A DNA stretch of 64,000 nucleotides from Candidatus Omnitrophota bacterium. Its GTDB lineage: Bacteria > Omnitrophota > Gorgyraeia > Gygaellales > Profunditerraquicolaceae. Below, one piece after another: positions 44,500-64,000 of the stretch. Both the position numbers and the translations under genes were made by a program. Each line of letters begins with the position of its first letter. Position 1 is the first letter of the stretch. Below the pieces are notes generated by a model. It was not told the DNA's origin and made no database searches. It was given only the letters and a program-made list of their open reading frames with translations. The stretch spans positions 149,514 through 213,513 of the forward strand of contig JAQUOD010000001.1 of assembly GCA_028717245.1 (NCBI GenBank). Reading direction: 5' to 3'.

Positions 44500-44508
44500 C
44501 TACAAGCT

Positions 44509-44516: not shown

Positions 44517-44531
44517 ATTAGAAACATTATT

Positions 44532-45077: not shown

Positions 45078-45081
45078 CTGC

Positions 45082-46531: not shown

Positions 46532-46545
46532 TTGCCTAAAATTTC

Positions 46546-47625: not shown

Positions 47626-47633
47626 CTCCTCTA

Positions 47634-49022
47634 TTAAAGGTGCCGAAAGCCCCTAAAATTAACGTCTCTGTCTATATGCAGTTTCCTATTTTGCTCCATT
47701 GCCTCGCTAAGTTTCTTTTGGAAATAAAACTCTAATAACCTGTTATTCGCCTCATATAAACAGCGGTAAAATTCATCGTCGCTCATATCCGTAAAATTTA
47801 CCGCTAATAAGTCCGTATTGAGATGCTTATTTTCGTAAAAATCTTCGCAGTCCTTAATCAGGCCTTTTTCAATGGCATAATAATAGAGGGGGCTGCCCGG
47901 ATAAGGCGTTACCGGACGGATAGTCCGCATTTGAGCCCCGTCGCTATATTTCAATAAAAATTCAACTCCCTTTTTTAAGGTTTCCTGATTATCGCCGATA
48001 TTACCAAAAATTATATTTAAGCCTGGGCTTATCCCGGATTTTAGCGTAGCCTCAACCCCCCTGATTATCTGGTCAGTCGTCAATCCCTTATGCATATTCT
48101 TTAAAACATCATTATCCATCGCTTCGATACCATAGTTTATGAATACGCACCCGGCTCTTTTCATTAAATTCAGCACTTCGGGTGTGGCATAATTTAACCT
48201 GCCGTTACAAGACCACTTTACTCCCACATTATCCCTTATGAAATCTTCGCATAAGCGCATTGTCCTTTCTTTAGAGGACATGAGCAGTTCGTCGGAAAAC
48301 GCAATATAAGTTATGCCGTACATTCTTTTTAAAAACATGATTTCATCAATAATGCCTTTGCTGCTGCGCGACCTGAATCCCGTATCCATGCGGTAACAAA
48401 ATGTGCATTTAAAAGTGCATCCCCTGCCGGATAGTACAGATATAACAAAATCCGTTCTGGAGGCATTGGGCATTCTCGCCAAACGGTAATAATCCATGGG
48501 AAAAAGCTCATAGGCCGGAAAGGGTATTTTATCTATATCTTCTATCAGGGGCCTCCTCTCATTAATCACCGCCTTATCCCCGTCTAAATACGCTATCCCC
48601 TTAATCTTGGATAAAGACTGTTGATGCCTAACTGCATCAAGCAACTCCACAACGGTTATTTCTCCCTCGCCGATAACAACGGCATCCGCCTTGGTTTTCT
48701 TAAGGTAAAATTCCGGCTCAGGCGAGGGGCCGTGGCCGCCGATAATGTAAAATGGCCGGTTTACCGAGTTGTTTATTGCCTGCGAAAGGCCTAAAAGTTT
48801 CCTATACTGGTAATATCCGCCTACAATACCCAAGCCGATGATATCAAATTTATTCTGGTCCAAGTATTCGGTAAGGTGGCTGTCCGGATAATGGAATTTA
48901 TCCTGGTTGTATATTTTAACTTCGTGCCCTTCTTTTATGAGTACCGCGGCAATATAAGCTAAGCCTTGCGGCAGCCTATGCATATATGAATCGTCATCGT
49001 AAGCTACTAATAATACTTTCAT
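47634..49022 (-). CDS. B12-binding domain radical SAM protein, paralog 5 of 6. It is a close paralog of 57716-59098.
   Basis: The radical SAM motif is GCTFKCTFCYR. The N- and C-termini are alignable by eye with 57716-59098 (MKVLLVAYDDDS.../...NFRGFRHL versus MKILFVLYDNES.../...SFRGTRH). Confidence 0.8.
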   Translation of the reverse strand: MKVLLVAYDDDSYMHRLPQGLAYIAAVLIKEGHEVKIYNQDKFHYPDSHLTEYLDQNKFDIIGLGIVGGYYQYRKLLGLSQAINNSVNRPFYIIGGHGPSPEPEFYLKKTKADAVVIGEGEITVVELLDAVRHQQSLSKIKGIAYLDGDKAVINERRPLIEDIDKIPFPAYELFPMDYYRLARMPNASRTDFVISVLSGRGCTFKCTFCYRMDTGFRSRSSKGIIDEIMFLKRMYGITYIAFSDELLMSSKERTMRLCEDFIRDNVGVKWSCNGRLNYATPEVLNLMKRAGCVFINYGIEAMDNDVLKNMHKGLTTDQIIRGVEATLKSGISPGLNIIFGNIGDNQETLKKGVEFLLKYSDGAQMRTIRPVTPYPGSPLYYYAIEKGLIKDCEDFYENKHLNTDLLAVNFTDMSDDEFYRCLYEANNRLLEFYFQKKLSEAMEQNRKLHIDRDVNFRGFRHL

Positions 49023-50206
49023 AACCCTTGCCTCTCTTTATTTTTAACAGGGATATCGTAAAACTCTTTCTTGATGATATTTTTCAGGCCGTAATTCTTA
49101 AGGATCTTCTTAATCCTAGGTGCTGTTTTTCCGTCGCCATAGGGATTAGCAACTCCCCTAAGCATACTTTGGAATTTTCTGCTGTATAACTTCCTTATGG
49201 CATTAGTTATCTCTTTTTTTATGGGCCGACAATCTATGATACTTTTGGCCTTAATTCTGCCTTTCTGCCTATCCCCTATATTTATGGTCCCGATTTTAAA
49301 ACTGGGGGCCTCTATGATACCGCTTGAGGAATTACCCACTATGGCATCGACAAATTGCATTGTGGATAGATACAGGCGTTGCCCCATTGAGGTAAATGCA
49401 ACAGCCTTAGAGGAATTCTTTGCTACATATTCATCAATCAGCTTATTAATTATTCTTCCATCCATATCAGCATTTGCCTTAGTAAAGATAAGGGCTGTCT
49501 CCCTCAATTCATCCAAAGATTGAAGCAAACTACGAAATTGTGCTCCTGAAGTATTATTTTCCAGAGTAACCGGATGATAAGTAATTAATAAATTATGTTT
49601 ATTAAATTTAAAATGCAGTTCTTGTTCTATCGCCTTTTTTGACAAAAGCCTCAGTTTTTTTAGATTATCTAATCCCAGTGCCCCTACCTTAAAGACCCTC
49701 ACAGGGTATTCGCCCAATTGGATAACCCTTCTTCTATATTCTTCGGCAGAAGTAAAATGTAAATGGCTCATTTTGGTTATCGCATGCCTGAATGCCTCAT
49801 CAATGACGCCGAATGTCGCTTCTCCGCCATGAATATGGGCAATAGGGATTCTCAATACCAGAGCTGCAACCGCAGCAGAAAAGGCCTCAAACCTATCCCC
49901 AACAATAACGATTATATCCGGCCCTAAGGCCTTAAATGCCTTAGAAAAACTGATCAGCCCTGCCCCCACGGCCCTGCTCAATCCGAATGGGGTATCAGAA
50001 TTAAGCGAAATACCTACTTTTTTATCTATCTTAAAACCGTCCTTTTCGATTTCTTTATAGGTTGATCCGAACTCTGGCAATAAATGCATGCCGGAAACAA
50101 CAAGCTGCAGCTTTAAGGCAGGATCGTTCTTTATAACAATTAGTAAAGGCCTTAAAATACCGTATTCTGCCCTTGTTCCGGTAAAAACGCAGATTTTTCT
50201 TTTCAT
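49019..50206 (-). CDS. UDP/GDP-N-acetylhexosamine 2-epimerase (hydrolysing), NeuC/LegG-like
   Basis: The N-terminal motif ICVFTGTRAEYGILRPL and the overall 395-aa length match NeuC-family enzymes. Confidence 0.85.
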   Translation of the reverse strand: MKRKICVFTGTRAEYGILRPLLIVIKNDPALKLQLVVSGMHLLPEFGSTYKEIEKDGFKIDKKVGISLNSDTPFGLSRAVGAGLISFSKAFKALGPDIIVIVGDRFEAFSAAVAALVLRIPIAHIHGGEATFGVIDEAFRHAITKMSHLHFTSAEEYRRRVIQLGEYPVRVFKVGALGLDNLKKLRLLSKKAIEQELHFKFNKHNLLITYHPVTLENNTSGAQFRSLLQSLDELRETALIFTKANADMDGRIINKLIDEYVAKNSSKAVAFTSMGQRLYLSTMQFVDAIVGNSSSGIIEAPSFKIGTINIGDRQKGRIKAKSIIDCRPIKKEITNAIRKLYSRKFQSMLRGVANPYGDGKTAPRIKKILKNYGLKNIIKKEFYDIPVKNKERQGL

Positions 50207-51207
50207 AATTCTATTAATGAATCCTTTTTAAAAAAAAATTTTGCCATCCTGCCGATTACATCATCCCATTTCATCGGATTTAAACCAGAGGCAGGCCTTT
50301 TAGTTGTAATATTAGCTGCAGTAAAATATTCTCCCTTACTGATATTTCTTGCTGCGACTATGCTTTTACGGGCTATTATTTTATTCTTGCGTTCTGAGCA
50401 AGATGCTTTTTTGATTCCGTTACCAAGGGCCTTTTCTATATTTCTTATCCCATTTATCATTGCCTTAAGTTCTTTCGGTTCCAAAGATGCCTTATGGTCA
50501 GGACCTTTCATATTTCTATCCAGGGTAAAATGTTTCTCTATCACAAATGCGCCCAGGGCTACTGCGGCTATAGGAACCTCAATACCGATAGTATGGTCGG
50601 AATAGCCTACCCTAACCTTAAAAGCCTCTTTTATCGTGAGCATAGCGCGTAGATTGGCATCTTCAAAGGGAGTCGGATATTCGGTATTACAATGGAGTAA
50701 TGTTATTTTTTCTTTTGCCGTCCCCGCCTCAGTAAGCACATCCAGCGCGTTTTTTATCTCGCGTAGGTCCGACATACCGGTTGAAAGTATAATTTTTTTC
50801 TTCAATCTCCCGATCTTTCTCAAATATGGAAGATTGGTAATTTCCCCCGAGGGGATCTTAAACATATTAATACCGAGCTTATCCAATAGTTCAATGCTTT
50901 CTAAATCAAAAGGTGATGATAAAAATATAATCTTTTTTCTTTTACAGTAATGCATAAGCTCTTTATGGGCATCGAACGTTAATTCTAATTTCTTTATCAT
51001 TTCAAATTGAGATTCTTCCTTATCAGTGGTTTTCTTTTGGTATTCAGCCTTAGGGGCAAGCTTGGTCAGTAATCTATCGGCTTTAAATGTCTGGAATTTT
51101 ACCGCATCGGCCCCTGCTTCTACAGCTATATCAATCATTCTTTTAGCTGTTTTAATGCTCCCGTTATGGTTTACGCCTGCCTCTGCAATAATAAAAGTTT
51201 TACCCAT
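50203..51207 (-). CDS. NeuB-family nonulosonic acid synthase (LegI/NeuB-like) with a C-terminal SAF domain
   Basis: The N-terminus is FIIAEAGVNHNGSIKTAKRMIDIAVEAGADAVKFQTF. The length is 334 aa. Confidence 0.9.
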   Translation of the reverse strand: MGKTFIIAEAGVNHNGSIKTAKRMIDIAVEAGADAVKFQTFKADRLLTKLAPKAEYQKKTTDKEESQFEMIKKLELTFDAHKELMHYCKRKKIIFLSSPFDLESIELLDKLGINMFKIPSGEITNLPYLRKIGRLKKKIILSTGMSDLREIKNALDVLTEAGTAKEKITLLHCNTEYPTPFEDANLRAMLTIKEAFKVRVGYSDHTIGIEVPIAAVALGAFVIEKHFTLDRNMKGPDHKASLEPKELKAMINGIRNIEKALGNGIKKASCSERKNKIIARKSIVAARNISKGEYFTAANITTKRPASGLNPMKWDDVIGRMAKFFFKKDSLIEL

Positions 51208-51215
51208 AATAAGTC

Positions 51216-51875
51216 TTATCTATTAGCATTATATTCAAACTTATGGCCATACAATTCTATGTACGCCCCGGGCATACCAGGATAGGCAGTCGCCTTTACG
51301 CGTTTTTTTATCTCTTCCTGCGGCATAGCCGCTTCTATTCGGCATAATTCCTCTAATTCTGAGCGAGTATAGGGCTTCCTCTTCCATGTTTCGTTAGAAA
51401 AAGGAATGATATTTTTAGTGAGAATAGAGTCCATAATTTCATAAAATAAAGTGTACATACATTCGTAACTTTTTATACTTAGGGTATATACGGAATCATT
51501 TCTTAACATTGAGAATCTTTTAACCGCGATTATTTTACCGCTATCGACATTCTTTTCCATTAAATGGGCGGTAATGCCGTAATACTTTTCTTGATTGTAT
51601 ATGGCAAAATTAAAACAGCCTATACCCGGATACTCTGGCGGGCCAGGATGAAAGTTTATACTCCATAATGCTGTTTTATTTAAAATTTGCTCCGGAATTA
51701 GCCACGGAGACAAATAAGAGATTAATATATCCTGAGAGCCGTTGAGCGCCTCTAGAGGAATAGATTCTCCTCTTTCCCCTTCATAGATAGCTACAGTATC
51801 AAAGTTTTTCTTTAAGTATTCTTTCACTTCATTAACTGTGGGTTTATCCGGTTTAGTAAACAGAGCGATTTTCAT
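51216..51875 (-). CDS. Formyltransferase-family protein (putative sugar N-formyltransferase)
   Basis: The motifs SINFHPGPPEYPG and GITAHLMEKNVDSGKI match the formyl_trans_N core blocks. The length is 219 aa. Confidence 0.55.
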   Translation of the reverse strand: MKIALFTKPDKPTVNEVKEYLKKNFDTVAIYEGERGESIPLEALNGSQDILISYLSPWLIPEQILNKTALWSINFHPGPPEYPGIGCFNFAIYNQEKYYGITAHLMEKNVDSGKIIAVKRFSMLRNDSVYTLSIKSYECMYTLFYEIMDSILTKNIIPFSNETWKRKPYTRSELEELCRIEAAMPQEEIKKRVKATAYPGMPGAYIELYGHKFEYNANR

Positions 51876-51882
51876 ATTAATA

Positions 51883-52974
51883 TTAAAGCGATTCTTTTAT
51901 AATCTTACATATATAGCGTATATCGTTTTCAGAATTTAGCGTCGAACTCGGCAAGCATAAGCCTTTTTCGTAAATATAGCGAGAATTATCGTAACGTCCT
52001 TGTCTATATTTTTTATATGGAGGGAACTCTGTCACGGGCATAAAGATCCTACGCGTGGGAATTCCCTTTACACTTAATTTTCTCCTTAATATTACTATGT
52101 CAACTTTATCACCGAAAGTAATGCAGGTGAGCCAAGAAGAGCTATCTGCCCCCTCGTACTCGTCTTGAAAACGGATATTTCTGATTCCCTTCATTTCATT
52201 TCGGTAAATAGCCTTAAATCTCTTTTTCTTGGCAAGGAACCCATTCAATCTCTTTAATTGCGCCAGGCCTAAAACCGCTTCTATATTAGTCATTCTGTAA
52301 TTGAAGCCGACTTCAGGATAGAAATACCCCCTTGACTCATCCCGAGCTTGGTTTACTAAAAACTTTATGTGTCCTAATCTCTTTTTGCTATTCCCCACTA
52401 CCATACCGCCGCCACCCGTAGTTATTATTTTATTTCCGTTAAAGCTAAAACAACCCAAATCTCCATATGTCCCTGTATATTTTCCTTTATATTTTGCCCC
52501 GAGGCTCTCGGTAGCATCTTCTATCACATAAATATTGTATTTGCGTGCGATTTTCATTATTTCATCCATATTACAGGGATTACCGTAAAAATGGACAGGT
52601 ATTATTGCTCTGGTCTTTTTGGTTATTTTTTTTTCAATCTTTTCAGGAGATATGTTCCAGGTTCTTATATCCACATCTACAAAAACCGGCTTTGCCCCTA
52701 CATATATAACAGGGTTTACTGTAGCGATGAAGGTCAGATTCGGAACAATTACTTCGTCTCCTTTACCTATCCTAAGCTCATATAAGGCGATATGCAGGGC
52801 AGCTGTACCGCTCTGCGTTGAAACGGCTTTTTTTGTCTCCAAATATTTAGCAAATTTTTCTTCAAATTCTGAAACATAAGGCCCGTATGTGGAAATGAAT
52901 CCTTTATCAATAGTTGTATTAATATAATTTTTCTCCAAGCGGCCAATATTAGGGGCGTCTAGTTCAATAAACAC
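51883..52974 (-). CDS. DegT/DnrJ/EryC1/StrS-family PLP sugar aminotransferase (LegC/PseC-like)
   Basis: The sequence has the FSFNGNKIITTGGGGM lysine region. The length is 363 aa. Confidence 0.9.
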   Translation of the reverse strand: MFIELDAPNIGRLEKNYINTTIDKGFISTYGPYVSEFEEKFAKYLETKKAVSTQSGTAALHIALYELRIGKGDEVIVPNLTFIATVNPVIYVGAKPVFVDVDIRTWNISPEKIEKKITKKTRAIIPVHFYGNPCNMDEIMKIARKYNIYVIEDATESLGAKYKGKYTGTYGDLGCFSFNGNKIITTGGGGMVVGNSKKRLGHIKFLVNQARDESRGYFYPEVGFNYRMTNIEAVLGLAQLKRLNGFLAKKKRFKAIYRNEMKGIRNIRFQDEYEGADSSSWLTCITFGDKVDIVILRRKLSVKGIPTRRIFMPVTEFPPYKKYRQGRYDNSRYIYEKGLCLPSSTLNSENDIRYICKIIKESL

Positions 52975-53966
52975 TCTTTCTCTCCTAAGTCTGGCGAAGT
53001 ATTGTAGTACTTTTTATCCTCGGGGTTATTAATTAGGCCTGACTTCAATAAATTAAGAACTTCCTTTACTCCGTCTACAACTGTGAATTCCTTTCTAATG
53101 TTTAATAACCTTCGAAGCTTTGAAAAATCTACCTTATAATCCCTTAAATCATACCCACTTTTAACTAATTCTATTTTAGTTTCCGGCATAAATGTTTTAA
53201 CAATTTGGGCGATCTGTATCTTCTGATAATTCTCTTCATTGAAACCCAGGTTAAAAACATTATTCTTGACCCTTTCAAAATCTTTAACCATTTGGATAAT
53301 TATCTTGGCGGCATCAACCACATGAATATAGGGCCTTTGACTGTAAGGAAGAAAAATATCCAAATATTTCTTGGTGTGGGCATTCATCGTGAAATCATTT
53401 ACGGTCAAATCAAACCTCATTCTTGGCGAATAACCATATACGGTAGAAAGCCGGCAGATAACCCAATCTAAATTTTTAACCTTATCCAATAAATGCCTCT
53501 CCACTCCTACCTTTGTTTCTGCATATAAAGAAAGGGGCTTTAAGGGCGATTCCTCGTTTGCCATGCCTTGCGAGACTCCGTAGTTAGAACAGGTTGATAA
53601 AAATATGATGCCGGTAGCTTCTGATTTCTGAATTTTTTCTATTAACCGTATAGACATATCATAATTAATAAGGCGAGTTAATACGGGAAATTTTTTGCTC
53701 GCAGGGTCCCCCACTACTGCAGCTGCGTGGATAATAATATCTATGTCCTTTAAGAATCCATCCAGCAATTCCTCCCTGCATAAATCCTCTCTTATAAATT
53801 CATAATTAGGATTATGGGAATACTCTAAAGGAACTTCCTTATCAAACCAAAGATGGTCAACTACCCTTACTTTAAAATTATTACGCAGGGATAAATCTGC
53901 AATTACTGAGCCGATATATCCGGCTCCGCCAGTTATTAAGATCCTTTTTTTTAGATTTGTCCCCAT
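52959..53966 (-). CDS. NAD-dependent nucleotide-sugar 4,6-dehydratase/epimerase (LegB-like candidate)
   Basis: The sequence has ILITGGAGYIGSVI and the YAETK YxxxK motif. The length is 335 aa. Confidence 0.75.
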   Translation of the reverse strand: MGTNLKKRILITGGAGYIGSVIADLSLRNNFKVRVVDHLWFDKEVPLEYSHNPNYEFIREDLCREELLDGFLKDIDIIIHAAAVVGDPASKKFPVLTRLINYDMSIRLIEKIQKSEATGIIFLSTCSNYGVSQGMANEESPLKPLSLYAETKVGVERHLLDKVKNLDWVICRLSTVYGYSPRMRFDLTVNDFTMNAHTKKYLDIFLPYSQRPYIHVVDAAKIIIQMVKDFERVKNNVFNLGFNEENYQKIQIAQIVKTFMPETKIELVKSGYDLRDYKVDFSKLRRLLNIRKEFTVVDGVKEVLNLLKSGLINNPEDKKYYNTSPDLGEKECLLN

Positions 53967-55856: not shown

Positions 55857-55859
55857 AAA

Positions 55860-57715: not shown

Positions 57716-59098
57716 TTAATGGCGTGTTCCTCTAAAGGAATAATCATTTTCATAATAGACTCTTCGGAAATCTTCTATACATTTATCTTCCATGTAGTCG
57801 TAATAGGACGTTATTATTTTTTTATTAGCCTCAAACATTAAATCGGTAAATTCATCGTCCGGGATTTCGGTGAAATTCACTGTTAATAGCTCTAAATTTT
57901 TATGTTTGCGATAAAAATCTTCCGGCCCCTTCAGCAGCCCTTTTTTAATGGCTAAATCGTAAAGAGGAGACCCCGGATACGGCGTTACCGGCCTGATTGT
58001 CCTGAGCTGTCCATAATCATTATATTTATGAAGAAAATCCAATGACCTCTTTAGCGTTTTTTGATTATCGCCAATATTCCCGAATATTATATTGAATAAA
58101 GGCCGGATTCCTCTCTCAAGAGTAAGCCTTATTCCATTCTCTATATCAATGGTAGTTAGTTCTTTATTCATCTTTCTTAAGGCATCGTCGTCGAATTGCT
58201 CAATACCATAATCAATAGCAACGCACCCGCTACGCTTCATTATGTCTAATACTTTAGCATTGGCTTTATTTAGCCTGCCTGTACAGAAATAATTAATATT
58301 AAGATTATTTTTTAAAAATTTTCCACAGATATCAAAGATTCTTTTTTCATTTAGCATAAAGAGTTCATCAAAGAACCATACGTAATTTATATTATAATCC
58401 CGTTTATATTTTTTAACCTCTTCAACTATATTATCCGAGGAACGAAGCCTTATGTCTTTTTCCAACCGATAGCAAAAATTACAATGATAGACACATCCTC
58501 TCTGCGCACTAACGCTTATACCCCGATCCAACGGCGAAGTAAAATACGTCGATTTAATGTAGAATTCCATAGGCAGCGAATCCAAATAAGGCGAAGGAAT
58601 TGAATCTAGATCCATAATAGGCTTTTCCCTGGGATTAACGATAACCCTATCGCCGTCACGAAAGGCAATCCCATTAACGTTTGATAAATTTTCGTTATTA
58701 TCAAGCGCCTTAATAATATTTAAAAACGGTATTTCTCCTTCTCCCATAACAACAGCATCTGCTCCGCAATATCTTATAAAATATTCCGGGACAGGAGAAG
58801 GCCCGTGTCCCCCTAAAACTATAAATGGTTTCTTTTTTAAACTCGTTATTGCATCGCAGATCTTCTTTATCTTTATGTGTTGAAAATACCCCGCAACGAA
58901 ACCCATAGCAACAACATCAAAGTGATTTCTCTTCAAGTATTCATGAAGATGGTCCTCATTATAATGGTAGACATCCTGGCAATAATAGGTTGTCTCTCTG
59001 TATCCGTGTTCCCTTAAATAAGCTGCAACATAGGTAATCCCGATGGGTAAGATATTATCCCTGCTTTCGTTATCATATAAAACGAATAAAATTTTCAT
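57716..59098 (-). CDS. B12-binding domain radical SAM protein, paralog 6 of 6
   Basis: The radical SAM motif is GCVYHCNFCYR. The length is 460 aa. Confidence 0.8.
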   Translation of the reverse strand: MKILFVLYDNESRDNILPIGITYVAAYLREHGYRETTYYCQDVYHYNEDHLHEYLKRNHFDVVAMGFVAGYFQHIKIKKICDAITSLKKKPFIVLGGHGPSPVPEYFIRYCGADAVVMGEGEIPFLNIIKALDNNENLSNVNGIAFRDGDRVIVNPREKPIMDLDSIPSPYLDSLPMEFYIKSTYFTSPLDRGISVSAQRGCVYHCNFCYRLEKDIRLRSSDNIVEEVKKYKRDYNINYVWFFDELFMLNEKRIFDICGKFLKNNLNINYFCTGRLNKANAKVLDIMKRSGCVAIDYGIEQFDDDALRKMNKELTTIDIENGIRLTLERGIRPLFNIIFGNIGDNQKTLKRSLDFLHKYNDYGQLRTIRPVTPYPGSPLYDLAIKKGLLKGPEDFYRKHKNLELLTVNFTEIPDDEFTDLMFEANKKIITSYYDYMEDKCIEDFRRVYYENDYSFRGTRH

Positions 59099-60384
59099 CT
59101 GTATTTCCTTTCTAATAAAGTTATGATTTTTTCTATGCCTATTGCAATATCCCGCATATCGGATTTACGATGAGGCATTCTGACATATTCGTTTATCATC
59201 ATCTGTTCAAAGTGCAGTTTTTCCGCATTAGGGCAAGTGCCTTTAAAATAATTTGTCTTTATATTCTTATTTTCTAAGGCGCTCCAGGGGTAACCATTTT
59301 TGAATGCCTTCTTTTGCCGATATAAAGGCTGCAAATAGAGCGGCTTTGTATATCCCGCAGAGAACTTAACCCCTTCAGCATTCATCAAATCAATTATTTT
59401 CTCCCTTTTTACATTGTATTTTTCCGATAGATAACGCAAAGGATAAACATAATATGTACTATAACAATTCTTTCTTTCTTTCGGAGTAATAAAACAATCA
59501 AATTTATTAAGGTTGCAATTTAAATATTCAACTAACCCTAGTCTTATTTTATTGAAATTATTTAACTTTTTTAATTGCTCAATACCAATGGCCGCCTGTA
59601 ATTCTGTTAGCCTAAAATTAAAACCGACTATATTAACTATATTCTTGTAACCGGCGTTATCAACTACGGCTTCTCCATGATTTCTTATTAATGCTAACCG
59701 GTAAGCGAGTTCCCGATTGTTCGTTACACAAACTCCACCCTCCCCTGTCTGTATTGTTTTATTTACATTTAAACTAAAAATACCAATATCTCCAAAAGTT
59801 CCTACATATTGCTCTCTATATTTTGCTCCATGCGCCTGAGCGCAGTCTTCAATGATTTTTAAATTATGTTTTTTTGCTATTTTAAGAATCCCAGACATAT
59901 CTGCGGGAATGCCGAATTGATGCACAACTAATATCGCTTTTGTCCTAGGTGTTATTTTTTCTTCGATGGATTCCGGCTTTAAGCAACCTGTGTCTAACTC
60001 AACATCCGCAAAAATCGGGATTGCTCCATAAATCAATGCACAGGCTGCGCAGGCAGACATTGTATAAGGCGAAACGATAACCTCATCCCCGTATCCTAAC
60101 TCAAGTGCCCCAATTGCCGCATAAAGCCCGGAAGTTGCGCTATTCATGGAAATAGCATACTTTATGCCATAGTATTCTGCCCATATTTTCTCTAGCCTAC
60201 GAACCCATGGTCCCCCCCAAAAACTAAAAGGCGGGTCGGGTTTATAGGACCCTTCAAATAAAGAAAACTGTCCCCTTTTAAGCACTTTTAATACAGCGCG
60301 CCTCTCCTCTTTGCCTGTAGTAATATTACCAAGCCAGGGCTTTGTGCGAACCGGCCTACCACTATTGATAGCTAATTTTGCCAT
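59095..60384 (-). CDS. DegT/DnrJ/EryC1/StrS-family PLP sugar aminotransferase
   Basis: The sequence has the FSLNVNKTIQTGEGGV lysine region. The length is 429 aa. Confidence 0.9.
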   Translation of the reverse strand: MAKLAINSGRPVRTKPWLGNITTGKEERRAVLKVLKRGQFSLFEGSYKPDPPFSFWGGPWVRRLEKIWAEYYGIKYAISMNSATSGLYAAIGALELGYGDEVIVSPYTMSACAACALIYGAIPIFADVELDTGCLKPESIEEKITPRTKAILVVHQFGIPADMSGILKIAKKHNLKIIEDCAQAHGAKYREQYVGTFGDIGIFSLNVNKTIQTGEGGVCVTNNRELAYRLALIRNHGEAVVDNAGYKNIVNIVGFNFRLTELQAAIGIEQLKKLNNFNKIRLGLVEYLNCNLNKFDCFITPKERKNCYSTYYVYPLRYLSEKYNVKREKIIDLMNAEGVKFSAGYTKPLYLQPLYRQKKAFKNGYPWSALENKNIKTNYFKGTCPNAEKLHFEQMMINEYVRMPHRKSDMRDIAIGIEKIITLLERKYR

Positions 60385-61367
60385 TTCAATGCCCTATCTC
60401 TTATTTCCCATAAAGACACCATTGTTTTACTTACTTCTTCGATTCCAATTTCGGACAATATAGCTGCGTCATTATCCGCAAGATAATCTATAATCTTATT
60501 AAATAAATTCCTAAGGGGAGATTCGCTCTTTAACATGGTGATTTTATTAATATTTCTTAATTCTTTTTCGCCTGAGTTGTTTATTAAAACTTTATCTATA
60601 AAAATATTTTCCCCGAAATCCATAATTCTTATTCGGCCGGATTCAAGCCTCATTTCTATCTCATATAGCTGATAATATTCTTCTGGAAAACTTTCCATAA
60701 AAATTTTTGCATCTGGATAATCCAGGGATATCAACTTGGCATCCACACAGAAATCATTTCCTCTACCCTTAGCGCCGATTTCAGCTGAAATCACCCTGAA
60801 TTCTGAACCTGTAATCATGCGTAAGGTATCCAAAATATGTACCCCGTTATTTAATAAACCGCCGTAATATATGGCGCGGATTGACAGCATCTTCCCAAAA
60901 TCGCCTCTTTTTATTATTTCTCTTACTCTTTGCAACCCGCGATGGAACCGGTAGGTGTGGTTAACAATAAGTTTAGTGCAAGTGTCTGCCAACATTTTTT
61001 TAATCTTAATTAATTCTGCTTTATTTAAGCATATTGGCTTTTCCACAAGAAGGATTCGCGGACGATTAGTATGCTGCAAAATTTTTTTTGCTAAAGTAAA
61101 ATGAGTGCGGTTTGGGGTACACAGTAAAATTATGTCTAACTTCTTGTTATCTAAAAGCTCATCCACATTTACATATTTATCTTTTATGCCCCACGTCCTG
61201 CAGAATTTATTCAGTTTTTTAATATCTTTATCGCATGCTGCTTCTAAATCTATATTCTTATTCTTTCTGCATACCTTAGCATGAGTGAAAGCGCCATCTT
61301 TATTATGGGGGGCATCAAACAAACCTGCTATTTTTCCTGTTCCTATAATAGCGGCTTTATATTTCAT
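60372..61367 (-). CDS. Gfo/Idh/MocA-family NAD(P)-dependent oxidoreductase
   Basis: The sequence has the KAAIIGTGKIAGLF N-terminal Rossmann motif and the NHTYRFH region. I favour the internal ATG start at 61367. Confidence 0.7.
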   Translation of the reverse strand: MKYKAAIIGTGKIAGLFDAPHNKDGAFTHAKVCRKNKNIDLEAACDKDIKKLNKFCRTWGIKDKYVNVDELLDNKKLDIILLCTPNRTHFTLAKKILQHTNRPRILLVEKPICLNKAELIKIKKMLADTCTKLIVNHTYRFHRGLQRVREIIKRGDFGKMLSIRAIYYGGLLNNGVHILDTLRMITGSEFRVISAEIGAKGRGNDFCVDAKLISLDYPDAKIFMESFPEEYYQLYEIEMRLESGRIRIMDFGENIFIDKVLINNSGEKELRNINKITMLKSESPLRNLFNKIIDYLADNDAAILSEIGIEEVSKTMVSLWEIRDRALKWQN

Positions 61368-62130
61368 CTTTACGATATTGCTTCCAGCGTCGGTAAATAT
61401 TCTTATTTGTTGCAATCAACTCGGGATGTTTCTGTAAAAATTTAATTACATCGTGAATTGTAAAATTTGGACTAACCGGGTATAAGTTCTCAATGACGGC
61501 CTTGATAATTATAAAATCTTCCTTTGTATCCAACTCAATCGCTATATCTGGACAGTATAATTGGGGCGGGGCCTCAATATTATGAAGACGGTAACGCTTA
61601 GGGTGCTGCCTGATATATAATGTCCCGTGTTCTCTCACATCGGGGGAAACTGCTCTTTCTGAAGCATCCTCTAAAGTACTTGTTGAATAAACCTCGACCT
61701 CTGCGCCGGAAGGAAAAGTGGTCTTTAAATCATTACTTACAAAATCATATTTATCCATATTTTCAATATAAAACTTAATCATATTATCGATAATTTCCGG
61801 GTCAACAAGCGGCCCGTCACCGAATATTTCTACGCCTATATCTGCATCATAAGTTTTTAATGCATTGAGTATCCTATCCAGAACATCCTCCTCGCTTCCC
61901 CTGAAACAGGCTACTCCTATTTTTTGACAATAGGCTTCAATGACATTGTTCTCGGGATTCAAGGAGGTGGCAACGACTATCTCATCAATTAATTCGGACA
62001 TCATTACTCTTTCTACTAAATACCCCAATATAGGTTTTCCTATAATATCTATCATAACTTTACCGGGGAGTCTCTCTGAATTCATTCTTACACAAATAAC
62101 AGCAACTATCTTAAGACCCTTATCTTTCAT
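61357..62130 (-). CDS. Cytidylyltransferase, SpsF/PseF-like (CMP-nonulosonate synthetase candidate)
   Basis: The motif LKIVAVICVRMNSERLPGKVMIDIIGKPIL is a CTP-transferase G-loop. The length is 257 aa. Confidence 0.7.
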   Translation of the reverse strand: MKDKGLKIVAVICVRMNSERLPGKVMIDIIGKPILGYLVERVMMSELIDEIVVATSLNPENNVIEAYCQKIGVACFRGSEEDVLDRILNALKTYDADIGVEIFGDGPLVDPEIIDNMIKFYIENMDKYDFVSNDLKTTFPSGAEVEVYSTSTLEDASERAVSPDVREHGTLYIRQHPKRYRLHNIEAPPQLYCPDIAIELDTKEDFIIIKAVIENLYPVSPNFTIHDVIKFLQKHPELIATNKNIYRRWKQYRKDEI

Positions 62131-63218
62131 TTTGCGATAATTAAATCTACAATGTTTTGCAGAATATCATCTCTAACAAAAGGAAATCGTTTAATAACTT
62201 TGCGCTCGTTTTTCAACTCCCCGGAAATATTTTCCTTTAACCAATCATAAAGGTTATTTTTATCATAAATACTTTTTATAATATTAAGGCGGACTGCAGT
62301 ACATAACTGTGGCCCTATGAGATGAGGTTGATAAGACACAACTAAGCATCCTAAAATAGCTGCTTCTAATAACGCCATTGAACGCATGCCGACTACCAAG
62401 TCGCTATGCCAAAGCAACGATAATAAATCCGCTTTTAAAATGGTAAGCCACCCTACAACTCCGTCGCCTAATGGCGCTAATTCGCCCCTTTGGTAGCTAG
62501 GGTGCAATTTTTCTATAACTGTGCAACTTTTTCCGATTTTCCTTAAAGCATCAAAAATATCTTGCCTAACAGTATGTTCGGTGTATCCGATGAATTGTCC
62601 CAGCAGACCCGATTCGCCTGGACTTGAGCTATAATCGACACTATGGGTTTCATGTAAAAAAGCAATTATCGGTTTAGGTTTATCTTGAATAAAATCCGGC
62701 GGGGCTGGCGGAGTGGTTAAAAATTTCTCGGCATCAAATGTAAAAATAGACAGGGACGGGTTTCCAGTTATAAATAAACGGTCTAACGGAATCCCTTCAG
62801 CGGCAGCTTCATTTCGGGCTTTTTCATCTTGGCAACAAATAATATCCGGTAAATAAGAAAGCTCACCATCCTCTTTTTGGAATCTAAAATAATAATTAAA
62901 CCATTCATCTAAAATAACAATGCTTCTAATCCCAAGTTTCCTGGCCGCTATGATTAAAAGACGTTCCGGGCTATGATAACGCGTAGTACCACACACTATA
63001 GCTATTGGGGAGATTTCTTTTAGAAGATTAACTGCTGCCGCTTCAGAATTGATATCCTTGGATTCTATAACTTTAATGCCTCGGGTATCAAATAACGTTA
63101 GCATCTCTTCTGATGTAGCTAGCAAAGGGATAAAACCTTTATTTTGTATATATAATAACAGAGGAGATAAGTTCCTTGCTCCTCCAACATCCGTAGCACA
63201 AAATAATAGCTTTTTCAT
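62127..63218 (-). CDS. PseG/SpsG-like GT-B (MurG-like) protein, a candidate nucleotide-sugar hydrolase
   Basis: The N-terminal Gly-rich motif is LLFCATDVGGARNL. The two-Rossmann architecture, 363-aa length and position between a cytidylyltransferase and a NeuB-like synthase match the spsE-F-G/pseI-F-G arrangement. Confidence 0.5.
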   Translation of the reverse strand: MKKLLFCATDVGGARNLSPLLLYIQNKGFIPLLATSEEMLTLFDTRGIKVIESKDINSEAAAVNLLKEISPIAIVCGTTRYHSPERLLIIAARKLGIRSIVILDEWFNYYFRFQKEDGELSYLPDIICCQDEKARNEAAAEGIPLDRLFITGNPSLSIFTFDAEKFLTTPPAPPDFIQDKPKPIIAFLHETHSVDYSSSPGESGLLGQFIGYTEHTVRQDIFDALRKIGKSCTVIEKLHPSYQRGELAPLGDGVVGWLTILKADLLSLLWHSDLVVGMRSMALLEAAILGCLVVSYQPHLIGPQLCTAVRLNIIKSIYDKNNLYDWLKENISGELKNERKVIKRFPFVRDDILQNIVDLIIAK

Positions 63219-63241
63219 TTCAGCCTTACCATATTCAATTC

Positions 63242-64000
63242 TTATATAAATCTGTTTCTCACAAATTCTTTTATCTCTTCTTCGCTTCTCCTGGGAACTT
63301 TATTTTCGTCACCTAATAACTGTTGTGTTATCGTAATGTTACTAATTAAACTTTTTAACTCACTTGGGGTAACTGAAAGTATATGGTCAGTGCCATCTTT
63401 ACATGCCTTATCGAAAGTAAAATGTTTCTCAATTACTCTTGCGCCTAATGCCACGGCAATAAGACATGCGAGTTCACCGATTGTATGGTCAGAATAACCT
63501 ATTTCATATTCTGGAAATTCCTTTTGCAGCGTCCTTACCGCGGATACATTTGCCTCCATATCTTTGCAGGGATATTGAGTTACGCAATGCAAAATATAGC
63601 ATTTCCTTACTTTATTTAAATGAGAAAGAGATTTCTTTATTTCCGTAATATTCGCCATACCCGTGGATAAAAATACGGTATCGGCATGCTCATTTACGTA
63701 ATCAAGCAAAGAAAGATTAAGCATCATTCCTGAAGCAATCTTTATCTCCTTAAGCCCTAACCCCTCGCAAAGAAACCTGGCTCTTTCCAGGCTAAAGGGG
63801 GAACTTAAGAATTTAACTCTGCACATCTGGGCGTATTCCTTCAGCGAAAAATGCGCTTCATCTGAAATATGCACCCTTTTAAACCAGCCGTATTCCGGGT
63901 CGTCTTTACTGAAGTTTTCCGGCTTATAGGACTGGAATTTTACATAATCCGCTCCGGCGGAAGCCGCTTCTTTAATCATCCTTTTGGCCAATCCTATATC
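63242..64000 (-). CDS. NeuB-family nonulosonic acid synthase (PseI/SpsE-like). It is partial, with the N-terminus beyond the window end.
   Basis: The ORF stays open to position 64000 (...DIGLAKRMIKEAASAGADYVKFQ...). It has the conserved NeuB core and the YSDHTIG metal/substrate motif. Confidence 0.85.
   Translation of the reverse strand, partial: DIGLAKRMIKEAASAGADYVKFQSYKPENFSKDDPEYGWFKRVHISDEAHFSLKEYAQMCRVKFLSSPFSLERARFLCEGLGLKEIKIASGMMLNLSLLDYVNEHADTVFLSTGMANITEIKKSLSHLNKVRKCYILHCVTQYPCKDMEANVSAVRTLQKEFPEYEIGYSDHTIGELACLIAVALGARVIEKHFTFDKACKDGTDHILSVTPSELKSLISNITITQQLLGDENKVPRRSEEEIKEFVRNRFI

What the first reader, a model, noticed from the sequence alone, without database searches (positions are those of the whole stretch)
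59095..64000. Second, pseudaminic-acid-like nonulosonic module (spsC-F-G-E/pseC-F-G-I-like) running off the window end
A DegT aminotransferase, a Gfo/Idh/MocA oxidoreductase, a PseF/SpsF-like cytidylyltransferase, a PseG/SpsG-like GT-B protein and a second NeuB-family synthase lie in tight overlap. Two distinct NeuB-type synthases within 14 kb imply two different nonulosonic acids made by one organism. The Gfo/Idh/MocA enzyme is not part of the canonical Pse pathway. The PseB and PseH equivalents are missing and may lie beyond coordinate 64000.
Basis: partly seen in the sequence, partly recalled or inferred. Interest (0 to 1): 0.55.

Follow-up and report, generated by a model that had tools for sequence, protein, structure and literature searches.

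The report
Uncharacterised amino-sialic-acid-like sugar gene cassette
The five genes are real and form a second sialic-acid-type sugar pathway in an uncultured Omnitrophota bacterium, but it is not the pseudaminic acid pathway: it is a copy of a widespread, unstudied gene cassette that probably makes a different, still unknown amino sugar acid for the cell surface.

Summary
Observation confirmed. Five tightly packed minus-strand genes lie at 59095-64000: a NeuB-family synthase, a 363-aa GT-B protein, an SpsF-type cytidylyltransferase, a Gfo/Idh/MocA oxidoreductase and a DegT aminotransferase. The second NeuB, at 50203-51207, is only 39% identical.

The pseudaminic-acid reading is not supported.
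- No protein reaches the PseB, C, G, H, I or F model cut-offs.
- The "PseG-like" protein folds like a UDP-GlcNAc 2-epimerase (NeuC/WecB).
- The synthase scores higher on the NeuB model than on the PseI model. It has no SAF domain and carries Met where N. meningitidis NeuB has Glu134.
- The identical 95-kb contig shows what lies beyond 64000: a GT2, a GalE-like SDR, a short DegT and a regulator. There is no PseB and no PseH.

The quartet 2-epimerase-like / cytidylyltransferase / Gfo / DegT recurs in MAG contigs from Planctomycetota, Omnitrophota, Proteobacteria, Acidobacteriota, Peribacteria and DPANN archaea. A NeuB is usually adjacent and a canonical NeuC never is. About half the full loci also carry a KdnB-like oxidase.

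Best reading: a CMP-activated amino-ulosonic acid made by oxidation and transamination rather than 4,6-dehydration. The product is unknown and I found no paper describing the cassette. I rate it a new variant of a known kind, of moderate interest.

The parts
63242..64000 (-). NeuB-family PEP-condensing synthase ('NeuBs271'). The window holds the C-terminal 252 of 271 aa; the start lies 57 nt beyond the window. It has no SAF domain and carries Met at the position of N. meningitidis NeuB Glu134. NCBI MDD4979787.
   Evidence: PF03102 at 221 bits. Full length from L001 9162-9977. NeuB_NnaB 255 bits (cut-off 399.65), PseI 181 (cut-off 340). Best PDB hit is 6ncs, a 290-aa SAF-less synthase, E 6e-47. 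In the alignment to 1xuu, E25, K53, Q55, K129, S132, H215, E234, H236 and D247 are kept and E134 is Met. The Planctomycetales orthologue has the same KIASGMM motif.
62127..63218 (-). 363-aa protein with a UDP-GlcNAc 2-epimerase-like GT-B fold ('Epi363'). It belongs to a large family with no Pfam or NCBIfam model. Proposed role: the NeuC/LegG-equivalent that releases the hexosamine substrate for NeuB. NCBI MDD4979788, annotated 'hypothetical protein'.
   Evidence: No family hit above cut-off. AF2 model pLDDT 94.3, pTM 0.90. The top 50 Foldseek PDB hits are all UDP-GlcNAc or UDP-sugar 2-epimerases, E down to 2.5e-13, TM 0.6-0.69. 1105 representative clusters at E<=1e-30. None of 21 related loci has a canonical NeuC.
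61357..62130 (-). SpsF-type CTP_transf_3 cytidylyltransferase ('CTP257'). Proposed CMP-ulosonic acid synthetase. NCBI MDD4979789, annotated 'glycosyltransferase family protein'.
   Evidence: PF02348 at 115.6 bits. Best PDB hit 6oew 'cytidylyltransferase', E 5e-38, followed by KdsB structures. KdsB-type models 81 bits, PseF 33 bits, all below cut-off. The RLPGK motif is visible in the sequence.
60372..61367 (-). Gfo/Idh/MocA NAD(P)-dependent oxidoreductase ('Gfo331'). Proposed to oxidise a sugar hydroxyl to the ketone that DegT429 aminates. NCBI MDD4979790.
   Evidence: PF01408 at 66 bits. Best NCBIfam hits are IolG (65 bits) and archaeal UDP-GlcNAc 3-dehydrogenase (54 bits), both far below cut-off. 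PDB hits are weak; YjhC 6o15 at 2e-7. GTGKIAG and EKP motifs are present. Always next to the DegT429 orthologue.
59095..60384 (-). 429-aa DegT/DnrJ/EryC1 PLP aminotransferase ('DegT429'), the most conserved member of the cassette. NCBI MDD4979791.
   Evidence: PF01041 at 303.5 bits. PseC 244 and LegC 197 bits, both below cut-off. Top PDB hits: glutamine:scyllo-inosose aminotransferases 3e-53, perosamine synthase 3e-51, KdnA 5k8b 1e-49. The 120 best homologues are 61-77% identical across phyla.
57716..59098 (-). B12-binding radical SAM enzyme ('rSAM460'). It overlaps the DegT429 stop by 4 nt. Probable accessory tailoring enzyme of the module, for example C-methylation.
   Evidence: PF02310 + PF04055. 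46.5% identical to rSAM462 at 47634-49022, which sits inside the second NulO module. B12-rSAM genes also accompany the cassette in L004, L017 and L023.
45830..53966 (-). The other nonulosonic-acid module, used for comparison: GalE-like SDR, LegC-family aminotransferase, formyltransferase-like protein, NeuB+SAF, NeuC, B12-rSAM, CBS-nucleotidyltransferase and CMP-NulO synthetase.
   Evidence: NeuB_NnaB 516.6 bits (passes 399.65). NeuC_NnaA 486 bits (passes 235.9). LegC family 413.4 vs 420. Formyl_trans_N. PseF model 155.6 vs 205.7.

Best explanation
The five genes are the 3' part of one operon in a >59-kb surface-glycan locus of a Candidatus Omnitrophota MAG. The operon reads regulator - DegT322 - SDR307 - GT2 - NeuBs271 - Epi363 - CTP257 - Gfo331 - DegT429 - B12-rSAM.

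They make up one variant of a conserved, uncharacterised cassette for a CMP-activated amino-ulosonic (sialic-acid-like) sugar that is neither pseudaminic acid nor canonical legionaminic or neuraminic acid.

Proposed route. The gene functions are inferred from family and fold. The order of steps and the position of amination are inferences.
1. Epi363, a divergent UDP-GlcNAc-2-epimerase-fold enzyme, takes the place of NeuC/LegG. It releases a 2-epimerised (N-acetyl)hexosamine from a nucleotide sugar.
2. The NeuB-family synthase condenses that sugar with PEP.
3. Gfo331 oxidises a hydroxyl to a ketone, and the adjacent, translationally coupled DegT429 transaminates it. A second dehydrogenase/aminotransferase pair adds another amino group. 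That pair is SDR307 + DegT322 here and a KdnB-like Fe-ADH + DegT400 in the commoner variant.
4. CTP257 activates the product as the CMP-sugar for transfer onto a polyprenol-linked glycan.

The cassettes contain no 4,6-dehydratase. The amino groups are therefore probably introduced without 6-deoxygenation, unlike in the Pse, Leg and Aci pathways, which give 9-deoxy sugars.
For: -
- Tight coupling of the genes, and a promoter-like site only ahead of the regulator gene.
- The quartet Epi363-CTP-Gfo-DegT429 is present and contiguous or near-contiguous in every related locus long enough to show it. These are 15 genome-contig loci plus 5 metagenome contigs, from Planctomycetales, Omnitrophota, Alphaproteobacteria, Acidobacteriota, Thermodesulfobacteriota, Peribacteria, Undinarchaeota and Pacearchaeota.
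- A NeuB lies within a few kb in most of these loci. A canonical NeuC lies in none of the 21.
- Among the type-A cassettes with Pfam-annotated gene calls, three (L018, L019, L023) show no SDR dehydratase in the ~20 kb shown, and L022 has only an end-truncated SDR about 3.5 kb upstream. In L004-L007 the phmmer screen found SDR-like ORFs only outside the cassettes.
- The Fe-ADH of the common variant is a close KdnB homologue: 5k8c at E 2e-85 and 290 bits over its full length, with the next non-KdnB hit at 1e-25. KdnB oxidises the terminal carbinol of free Kdo, so this is a precedent for amination after condensation. It co-occurs with DegT400 in 7 loci.
- DegT429's best solved relatives include enzymes that act on substrates not bound to a nucleotide: inosose aminotransferases and KdnA.
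- SDR307 lacks the Thr-Asp-Glu dehydratase motif, having STIWVY instead. It scores 131 vs 475 on LegB and 71 vs 407.75 on PseB.
Against: - No enzyme was assayed and the product is unknown.
- The substrate and carbon position attacked by Gfo331/DegT429 cannot be read from the sequence. Their solved relatives are roughly equidistant. Known Gfo/DegT pairs (WbpB/WbpE, GnnA/GnnB, NtdC/NtdA) act on C3 of hexose derivatives before any condensation.
- I did not map Epi363's catalytic residues onto NeuC or WecB. hhalign against a single NeuC gave only 0.8% probability, and hydrolysing versus non-hydrolysing activity is undetermined.
- NeuBs271 lacks the SAF domain, which supplies Arg314 in NmNeuB, and has Met at Glu134. 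Its chemistry could therefore differ, or its activity could be low.
- The window variant has no KdnB homologue, so the KdnB argument applies to it only by analogy.
- No N-acyltransferase lies inside the module.
- The conserved small GT2 has no place in the scheme.
Confidence: 0.55

Rival explanations
1. Pseudaminic-acid-like pathway: DegT429 = PseC, Epi363 = PseG, NeuBs271 = PseI, CTP257 = PseF, with PseB and PseH encoded upstream.
For: All five belong to the same broad superfamilies as PseC, G, I and F. PseC is the top NCBIfam model for DegT429 at 244 bits.
Against: Every Pse equivalog cut-off is missed by a wide margin. Epi363 matches 2-epimerases, not PseG. NeuBs271 scores higher on NeuB_NnaB than on PseI and lacks the ASFE motif seen in the PseI-type NeuBs of L010 and L011. 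Upstream there is no PseB-type inverting dehydratase and no GNAT.
Confidence: 0.04
2. A UDP-linked legionaminic-acid pathway of the B. subtilis sps type. SDR307 + DegT322 would act as the dehydratase and aminotransferase, Epi363 as the LegG/SpsG equivalent, NeuBs271 as LegI/SpsE and CTP257 as LegF/SpsF. Gfo331 + DegT429 would serve precursor supply or decoration, with Gfo331 possibly PtmF-like.
For: The sps genes make Leg (PMC7439481). CTP257 homologues are widely labelled SpsF. A small SpsA-like GT2 is adjacent. The synthase is nearer the Neu/Leg class. A 2-epimerase fold fits Leg/Neu stereochemistry. PtmF of Leg clusters is annotated as an oxidoreductase in Leg clusters (PMC4481668); that it belongs to the Gfo/Idh/MocA family is from my own knowledge.
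Against: SDR307 lacks the dehydratase motif and scores LegB 131/475. There is no N-acetyltransferase. The commoner form of the cassette has no SDR inside it and has a KdnB-like oxidase instead. A weak second Gfo (possibly PtmF-like, untested) co-exists with the Gfo331 orthologue in L009 and L014, matching it only at E~1e-7. The organism already has a Leg/Neu-type module 6 kb downstream.
Confidence: 0.17
3. An ordinary Neu5Ac/Kdn-type or Kdo-type CMP-sugar pathway (Epi363 + NeuB + CTP257). The co-located Gfo331/DegT429 pair would make an unrelated amino sugar, such as a UDP-GlcNAc3N or kanosamine-type sugar, for the same glycan.
For: Gfo/DegT pairs are well-known makers of 3-amino hexoses (WbpB/WbpE, GnnA/GnnB, NtdC/NtdA; established knowledge). 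NtdA and WbpE are among the PDB hits. The archaeal UDP-GlcNAc 3-dehydrogenase model hits Gfo331 at E 1e-14. The locus encodes many other sugar pathways.
Against: The four genes stay contiguous, often overlapping, across bacterial and archaeal phyla while the rest of each locus differs. This argues for one pathway. In Magnetococcales the CTP-Gfo-DegT trio stands alone as a unit.
Confidence: 0.15
4. Not an ulosonic acid at all. Gfo331 (IolG-like) and DegT429 (glutamine:scyllo-inosose aminotransferase-like) would make an aminocyclitol that is then cytidylylated.
For: The best NCBIfam model for Gfo331 is inositol 2-dehydrogenase. The best PDB hits for DegT429 are inosose aminotransferases.
Against: Both similarities are far below family cut-offs (65 vs 355 bits). 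CTP_transf_3 enzymes activate 2-keto-3-deoxy acids (established knowledge). Linkage to NeuB and to a 2-epimerase-fold protein is near-universal.
Confidence: 0.04

Closest known systems
Neu5Ac / legionaminic acid pathways (NeuC/LegG - NeuB/LegI - NeuA/LegF)
   Same: The same three-step logic: a 2-epimerase-fold enzyme, a NeuB-family PEP condensation and a CTP_transf_3 activation. The synthase scores best on the NeuB_NnaB model.
   Different: The 2-epimerase-like protein is a separate, unannotated family with 13-17% identity to solved epimerases. The synthase lacks SAF and Glu134. The cytidylyltransferase is SpsF/KdsB-like rather than NeuA/LegF-like. There is no 4,6-dehydratase and no acetyltransferase. 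An extra Gfo/DegT pair is present.
Kdo8N pathway of Shewanella (KdnB oxidase + KdnA aminotransferase acting on free Kdo, then KdsB)
   Same: Oxidation followed by transamination of an ulosonic acid after condensation. The commoner form of the cassette carries a close KdnB homologue (290 bits to 5k8c). DegT429 hits KdnA at 1e-49. The N-terminal half of CTP257 is KdsB-like.
   Different: The window variant has no KdnB homologue. The condensing enzyme is NeuB-type, not KdsA. A Gfo/Idh/MocA enzyme is the invariant dehydrogenase.
B. subtilis sps operon (SpsA, C, E, F, G; legionaminic acid, PMC7439481)
   Same: Shared gene families: GT2, DegT, NeuB-family synthase, SpsF-type cytidylyltransferase and a GT-B protein.
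   Different: SpsE has a SAF domain (1vli, 385 aa). From my own knowledge, SpsG is PseG-like, whereas Epi363 is 2-epimerase-like. sps needs the SpsM dehydratase and the SpsD acetyltransferase, and neither has a counterpart here. sps has no Gfo/Idh/MocA enzyme.
WbpB/WbpE, GnnA/GnnB and NtdC/NtdA oxidoreductase-aminotransferase pairs
   Same: A Gfo/Idh/MocA dehydrogenase is coupled to an adjacent DegT-fold aminotransferase to turn a sugar hydroxyl into an amine.
   Different: Those pairs act on C3 of UDP-GlcNAc(A) or Glc-6-P. Gfo331 and DegT429 are only distantly related to them: WbpE at 3e-33, NtdA at 9e-39, and no WbpB among the PDB hits. Here the pair is locked to NeuB/cytidylyltransferase genes.
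Leptospira SAF-less 'NeuAc synthetase' (PDB 6ncs) and 'cytidylyltransferase' (PDB 6oew)
   Same: These are the closest solved relatives of NeuBs271 (E 6e-47) and CTP257 (E 5e-38). 6ncs is also SAF-less.
   Different: From my own knowledge they are structural-genomics entries without an assigned product. 6ncs has Asp, not Met, at the Glu134 position.

Membership tests
Pseudaminic acid pathway (PseB/C/H/G/I/F) | PseB: inverting UDP-GlcNAc 4,6-dehydratase (TIGR03589, cut-off 407.75) | tested here: not met
   The only SDR in the operon, SDR307 (L001 7455-8378), scores 71.2 bits and has STIWVY at the Thr-Asp-Glu position of RmlB-type dehydratases; the PseB-type T-x9-M/Y-x3-K motif was not examined.
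Pseudaminic acid pathway (PseB/C/H/G/I/F) | PseC aminotransferase (TIGR03588, cut-off 423.5) | tested here: not met
   DegT429 scores 244.4 bits and DegT322 149.6 bits.
Pseudaminic acid pathway (PseB/C/H/G/I/F) | PseH GNAT N-acetyltransferase | tested here: not met
   There is no GNAT or hexapeptide gene in the module or in the 10 kb upstream in L001.
Pseudaminic acid pathway (PseB/C/H/G/I/F) | PseG UDP-sugar hydrolase (MurG-like GT-B) | tested here: not met
   Epi363 has no NCBIfam hit. The top 50 structural matches are all 2-epimerases and none is PseG.
Pseudaminic acid pathway (PseB/C/H/G/I/F) | PseI synthase (TIGR03586, cut-off 340.25) and PseF (TIGR03584, cut-off 205.7) | tested here: not met
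   NeuBs271 scores 180.8 on PseI, below its NeuB_NnaB score of 254.9. CTP257 scores 33.3 on PseF.
Legionaminic acid pathway (LegB/C/H/G/I/F) | LegB 4,6-dehydratase (TIGR04180, 475) and LegC (TIGR04181, 420) | tested here: not met
   SDR307 scores 131 bits. DegT429 scores 197.5 and DegT322 133.7.
Legionaminic acid pathway (LegB/C/H/G/I/F) | LegG/NeuC hydrolysing 2-epimerase (TIGR03568 / PF02350) | tested here: inconclusive
   By sequence the models are not met (PF02350 16.5 vs 30.6; no TIGR03568 hit). The fold clearly matches. I did not map the catalytic residues.
NeuB family (PF03102) sialic-acid-type synthases | NeuB TIM-barrel domain with metal ligands and PEP-binding residues | tested here: met
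   221 bits against a cut-off of 22.1. E25, K53, Q55, K129, S132, H215, E234, H236 and D247 of NmNeuB are conserved.
NeuB family (PF03102) sialic-acid-type synthases | C-terminal SAF domain (Arg314) and Glu134 | tested here: not met
   The protein ends at residue 271 with no SAF hit. Position 134 is Met, as in the Planctomycetales orthologue. SAF-less NeuBs are a known environmental clade (PMC8208679).
Kdo8N-type post-condensation amination (KdnB/KdnA) | KdnB-family Fe-ADH oxidase next to a DegT aminotransferase | tested here: not met
   It is present in type-A cassettes (L022 Fe-ADH vs 5k8c, 290 bits). It is absent from the window and from L001 (tblastn found no hit).
Gfo/Idh/MocA + DegT oxidation-transamination pairs | Adjacent NAD-dependent Gfo/Idh/MocA dehydrogenase (EKP motif) and PLP-Lys DegT aminotransferase | tested here: met
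   PF01408 at 66 bits and PF01041 at 303 bits. There is a 13-nt overlap between the genes. The EKP motif and the SLNVNK lysine are visible in the sequences. Substrate and regiochemistry cannot be tested with these tools.
Conserved Epi363-CTP-Gfo-DegT cassette (defined here) | All four genes are syntenic, a NeuB is nearby and no canonical NeuC is present | tested here: met
   The window matches the pattern seen in 20 other loci.

The most novel reading that the evidence does not exclude
The cassette encodes a previously undescribed biosynthetic route to a new class of CMP-activated poly-amino ulosonic acid. The amino groups would be installed by dehydrogenase/aminotransferase pairs (Gfo/DegT plus KdnB-like/DegT or SDR/DegT), possibly after the PEP condensation, rather than through a 4-keto-6-deoxy nucleotide sugar. 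The product would keep O or N at the terminal carbon. The free-sugar step would be carried out by a new, Pfam-less family of 2-epimerase-fold enzymes. The route would be widespread in uncultured bacteria, CPR and DPANN archaea.
Probability: 0.35. Interest if true: 0.7.

Novelty: new variant of a known kind. Interest (0 to 1): 0.55.

Why it matters
Nonulosonic acids such as sialic, legionaminic and pseudaminic acid shape how microbial surfaces are recognised by hosts, phages and neighbours. Only a handful of biosynthetic routes to them are known.

This module points to a further route that is phylogenetically very broad. It reaches from Omnitrophota and Planctomycetota to CPR bacteria and DPANN archaea, and it lacks the hallmark 4,6-dehydratase. 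It includes a protein family of more than 1000 sequence clusters that current databases leave as "hypothetical".

It gives a concrete set of eight or nine genes to express in order to identify a possibly new sugar. Recent mass-spectrometry surveys have reported unassigned CMP-linked ulosonic acids in environmental bacteria (SugarBase preprint). It also shows that automatic "SpsF / PseG / NeuB" labels cannot be read as "pseudaminic acid".

Tried and rejected
- Pse membership: tested with NCBIfam equivalog models and rejected.
- Recent duplication of NeuB: rejected, 39% identity.
- hhalign of the Epi363 family against the window's own NeuC gave 0.8% probability. This is too weak to transfer catalytic residues.
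- Literature searches found no description of the cassette: nonulosonic + Omnitrophica; nonulosonic/Gfo/aminotransferase/cytidylyltransferase; KdnA/KdnB; Fe-ADH + NeuB + SpsF; triamino nonulosonic.
- The plasmid collection gave only a distant Azospirillum argentinense p6 variant: a 44%-identical fused DegT, a 232-aa SAF-less NeuB, and a Gfo next to an SpsF-like gene. No glycan structure is linked to it.
- The homologue searches returned almost only metagenomic proteins, so no cultured organism with a known glycan could be tied to the cassette. A Leptospira paper lists a kdnB annotation, but I did not examine its genomic context.
- I found no KdnB homologue in the window or in L001.
- The promoter and terminator scan is not above chance overall. 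Only the 11/12 match in the sole intergenic gap (L001 5798-5826) is worth noting.

Full report
**1. What is in the sequence**

From about 5 kb to 64 kb, every substantial ORF in the window is on the minus strand. The finding therefore reads, in the direction of transcription, as follows.

| Gene (my label) | Window coordinates | Size |
|---|---|---|
| NeuB-like synthase (NeuBs271) | 63242->64000 | 271 aa in full |
| Unannotated protein (Epi363) | 62127-63218 | 363 aa |
| CTP_transf_3 cytidylyltransferase (CTP257) | 61357-62130 | 257 aa |
| Gfo/Idh/MocA oxidoreductase (Gfo331) | 60372-61367 | 331 aa |
| DegT aminotransferase (DegT429) | 59095-60384 | 429 aa |

The junctions between successive genes are +23, -4, -11 and -13 nt. 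The next gene, a B12-binding radical SAM enzyme (57716-59098), overlaps DegT429 by 4 nt. Pfam confirms four of the five family assignments. The 363-aa protein has only a sub-threshold Epimerase_2 hit.

**2. Extending the contig**

An exact look-up of the 363-aa protein found a 94,965-bp Logan contig (L001). It is identical to the window over all 11,874 shared bases. NCBI carries the same proteins from a Candidatus Omnitrophica/Omnitrophota MAG under accessions MDD4979787-91.

The NeuB-like gene starts 57 nt beyond the window. It encodes 271 aa consisting of a NeuB domain only, with no SAF domain.

Upstream on the same strand lie four more genes:
- a 248-aa GT2;
- a 307-aa GalE-like SDR;
- a short (322-aa) DegT;
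- a 186-aa MarR/CudC-like regulator.

The regulator gene is preceded by the only real intergenic gap, which holds an 11/12 sigma-70-like match. A divergent B12-radical SAM gene lies beyond that gap. There is no PseB-type dehydratase and no GNAT or hexapeptide acetyltransferase.

**3. The pseudaminic-acid label fails**

Scores against NCBIfam equivalog models:

| Protein | Model | Score (bits) | Cut-off (bits) |
|---|---|---|---|
| DegT429 | PseC | 244 | 423.5 |
| CTP257 | PseF | 33 | 205.7 |
| CTP257 | KdsB-type models | up to 81 | not reached |
| NeuBs271 | PseI | 181 | 340 |
| NeuBs271 | NeuB_NnaB | 255 | 399.65 |
| SDR307 | PseB | 71 | 407.75 |

Two further points:
- NeuBs271 scores higher on the NeuB_NnaB model than on the PseI model.
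- SDR307 has STIWVY where RmlB-type 4,6-dehydratases have Thr-Asp-Glu.

The supposed PseG gave a confident AlphaFold model from a 37-sequence alignment (pLDDT 94.3, pTM 0.90). All 50 of its best PDB matches are UDP-GlcNAc or UDP-sugar 2-epimerases: WecB, MnaA, SiaA/NeuC and WbpI-like enzymes. E-values reach 2.5e-13, with TM-scores of 0.6-0.69 at 13-17% identity.

**4. The two synthases**

NeuBs271 and the downstream NeuB334 (50203-51207) share 39% identity.
- NeuB334 has a SAF domain and passes the NeuB_NnaB cut-off (516.6 bits).
- NeuB334 sits with a bona fide NeuC (486 bits), a LegC-family aminotransferase (413 vs 420), a formyltransferase-like protein, a CBS-nucleotidyltransferase and a CMP-NulO synthetase.

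So the organism has two complete, non-redundant modules.

Aligned to N. meningitidis NeuB (1xuu), NeuBs271 keeps E25, K53, Q55, K129, S132, H215, E234, H236 and D247. It has Met at the proposed catalytic Glu134 and lacks the SAF domain that provides Arg314. The Planctomycetales orthologue has the identical KIASGMM motif, so this is a conserved state and not decay. SAF-less NeuBs are a recognised but uncharacterised environmental clade (PMC8208679). The closest solved structure, 6ncs, is one of them.

**5. A conserved cassette**

I used the 363-aa family as a handle.
- One scan of species-representative genomes returned 15 loci, all from MAGs: Planctomycetales, Undinarchaeota, Omnitrophota, Xanthobacteraceae, Rhodospirillales, other Pseudomonadota, Peribacteria (CPR), Pacearchaeota, Vicinamibacterales and Acidobacteria.
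- Contig look-ups added Thermodesulfobacteriota, Magnetococcales and further metagenome contigs.

In every locus long enough to judge, the four genes Epi363, CTP257, Gfo331 and DegT429 occur together, mostly contiguous and in the same order. DegT429 is the most conserved of the four. Its 120 best database homologues are 61-77% identical.

A NeuB lies within a few kb in most loci. None of the 21 related loci has a canonical NeuC. That fits Epi363 filling the NeuC role.

Family sizes:
- The Epi363 family has 1105 representative clusters at E<=1e-30 and 3569 at E<=1e-10 in a library of 1.84 billion proteins, yet it has no Pfam or NCBIfam model.
- Orthologues of CTP257 and DegT429 number in the thousands. 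They carry only generic names such as 'SpsF', 'glycosyltransferase family protein' and 'perosamine synthetase'.

**6. Variants of the cassette**

- Type A is the commonest form (L004-L007, L018, L022, L023). It reads Fe-ADH - GT2 (about 220 aa) - DegT (about 395 aa) - NeuB+SAF (motif KIASAD) - Epi363 - CTP - Gfo - DegT429. A GNAT, formyltransferase, methyltransferase or B12-radical SAM gene often follows.
- The type-A Fe-ADH is a close homologue of KdnB, the 3-deoxy-D-manno-octulosonate 8-oxidase of the Shewanella Kdo8N pathway. It matches 5k8c at E 2e-85 and 290 bits over its full length, and the next non-KdnB hit is at 1e-25.
- Type B is the window's form, shared with a Planctomycetales MAG (L002/L017). 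It replaces Fe-ADH + DegT400 + NeuB-SAF with DegT322 + SDR307 + the SAF-less NeuBs271 and keeps the small GT2. The window and L001 contain no KdnB homologue.
- Peribacteria carry a third arrangement: CTP-Gfo-DegT-Epi363-SDR-DegT.

The quartet is therefore the invariant core. The second dehydrogenase/aminotransferase pair and the synthase are interchangeable.

**7. How it most likely works**

Shown: the gene families, the fold of Epi363, the synteny, the lack of a 4,6-dehydratase inside the type-A cassettes, and the absence of a canonical NeuC or PseG from every related locus.

Inferred:
- Epi363 converts a nucleotide-HexNAc to a free 2-epimerised hexosamine.
- NeuB condenses that sugar with PEP.
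- Gfo331 and DegT429 convert a hydroxyl into an amine through a ketone. The second dehydrogenase/aminotransferase pair adds another amine.
- CTP257 makes the CMP-sugar.

The KdnB homology in type A is a precedent for amination after condensation. So is the similarity of DegT429 to aminotransferases that use nucleotide-free ketones (inosose aminotransferases and KdnA). Without a 4,6-dehydratase, the product would not be a 9-deoxy sugar like Pse, Leg or Aci.

Not determined:
- which carbon Gfo331 and DegT429 attack;
- whether they act before or after condensation;
- whether Epi363 hydrolyses its substrate;
- what the conserved GT2 does;
- the consequences of the Glu134-to-Met change.

**8. Rivals**

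- A B. subtilis-type Leg pathway remains possible (about 0.17). It is weakened by the non-dehydratase SDR, the missing acetyltransferase and the SDR-free type-A cassettes.
- The Gfo/DegT pair might make an unrelated 3-amino sugar, as WbpB/WbpE, GnnA/GnnB and NtdC/NtdA do (about 0.15). Against this, the four genes stay locked together across domains of life while everything around them changes.
- An aminocyclitol reading (about 0.04) has only sub-threshold similarity behind it. So does the Pse reading (about 0.04).

**9. Context**

The module belongs to a single-strand glycan locus of more than 59 kb. The locus also holds:
- four CTP_transf_3 genes;
- six B12-radical SAM genes;
- an HpcH/HpaI aldolase;
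- a heptose-type module;
- many glycosyl- and methyltransferases;
- an ABC exporter;
- a GT4 (WecA/MraY-like) initiating transferase fused to a PglD-like domain;
- a Wzy_C protein.

Glycolytic housekeeping genes follow the locus. The CMP-sugar is thus most likely built into a polyprenol-linked surface polysaccharide or protein glycan. Two large proteins without Pfam domains (53979-57695) lie between the two NulO modules and are candidate transferases. I did not test them.

**10. Novelty and verdict**

I found no paper describing this cassette. A 2026 preprint reports unassigned CMP-activated ulosonic acids in environmental bacteria, including higher-carbon and N-formyl or free-amine forms. So unassigned chemistry of this kind does exist.

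The logic of the pathway is known: epimerase, PEP condensation, CMP activation, and oxidation followed by transamination. The combination is new, as are the missing dehydratase, the unannotated epimerase-fold family and the SAF-less Met134 synthase. I rate it a new variant of a known kind, with interest about 0.55. It is worth an expression and mass-spectrometry experiment, but it is not a categorically new system.

Noticed in passing
window 45830-53966 (-): The 'first' NulO module is itself non-canonical. Its SDR (52959-53966) scores only 47.8 bits on the LegB model (cut-off 475) and has STCSNYG where RmlB-type dehydratases have Thr-Asp-Glu. A formyltransferase-like protein (51216-51875) sits where LegH/NeuD acetyltransferases normally are. 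This hints at an N-formylated NulO that may not be 9-deoxy.
   Followed up: partly
window 57716-59098, 47634-49022, 36824-38524, 30517-31965, 19587-21896, 8128-9615; L001 4184-5641: One glycan locus holds six B12-binding radical SAM genes, and a seventh lies just upstream in L001. The two next to the NulO modules (460 and 462 aa) are 46.5% identical paralogues, one per module. They may be sugar C-methylases or other tailoring enzymes; compare the higher-carbon CMP-ulosonic acids reported in Magnetospirillum.
   Followed up: partly
window 25532-29643 (-): A possible third keto-acid sugar module: two more CTP_transf_3 cytidylyltransferases (25532-26248, 26269-26937), an HpcH/HpaI-type pyruvate aldolase (26934-27701), a protein without domains (27703-28461) and a class I/II aminotransferase (28462-29643). 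A radical SAM/SPASM gene follows (29507-30484). An HpcH/HpaI gene also lies near the cassette in L019.
   Followed up: no
window 53979-57695 (-): Two large proteins (611 and 625 aa) between the two NulO modules have no Pfam hit. The 625-aa one has a weak PFTS-motif match (TIGR04417, E 4e-4; PF27878 in the precomputed annotation). They are candidate transferases or polymerases for the CMP-sugars. A fragment homologous to the 611-aa protein lies near the cassette in the Omnitrophota locus L004.
   Followed up: no
window 39469-45882 (-): A heptose-type nucleotide-sugar module: NTP transferase, SIS isomerase and GHMP kinase. It comes with tailoring enzymes: an SDR epimerase, a sugar C-methyltransferase (Methyltransf_13/14), a 3,5-epimerase and a DegT aminotransferase. 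A formyltransferase-like protein lies at 38532-39392.
   Followed up: partly
window 5026-8068 and 31973-33781 (-): The locus ends with a GT4 (WecA/MraY-like) initiating transferase fused to CoA-binding and PglD_N domains (6245-8068) and a Wzy_C/O-antigen-ligase-like protein (5026-6273). An ABC exporter lies at 31973-33781. PGK and TIM follow at 662-2618. This marks the boundary of a glycan island of more than 59 kb transcribed in one direction.
   Followed up: partly
L001 5869-6429 (equivalent to about 2.8-3.4 kb beyond window position 64000): A MarR/TrmB-like winged-helix protein opens the operon. Its best NCBIfam match is the choline regulator CudC (67 bits, below cut-off). A TTGACA-17-TATCAT promoter-like site with an extended -10 TG lies 43 nt upstream at L001 5798-5826.
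   Followed up: partly
L020 (Azospirillum argentinense plasmid p6, NZ_CP032327.1 132818-157981): A cultured organism carries a distant relative of the gene set. It has a 780-aa DegT fusion (44% identical to DegT429 over 396 aa), a 232-aa SAF-less NeuB-family protein, a GNAT, methyltransferases, and a Gfo/Idh/MocA gene next to an SpsF-like 'glycosyltransferase family protein'. It has no Epi363 homologue. It could serve as an experimental entry point.
   Followed up: partly
L021 and L023: A DUF4910/DUF2172/HTH_47 (aminopeptidase-like) protein paired with a formyltransferase accompanies the cassette in two unrelated contigs, one from Magnetococcales and one from a metagenome. Its role is unknown.
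   Followed up: no
window 2696-4960 (-): A 754-aa protein with a central spermine/spermidine synthase domain sits between the glycan locus and the glycolytic genes.
   Followed up: no
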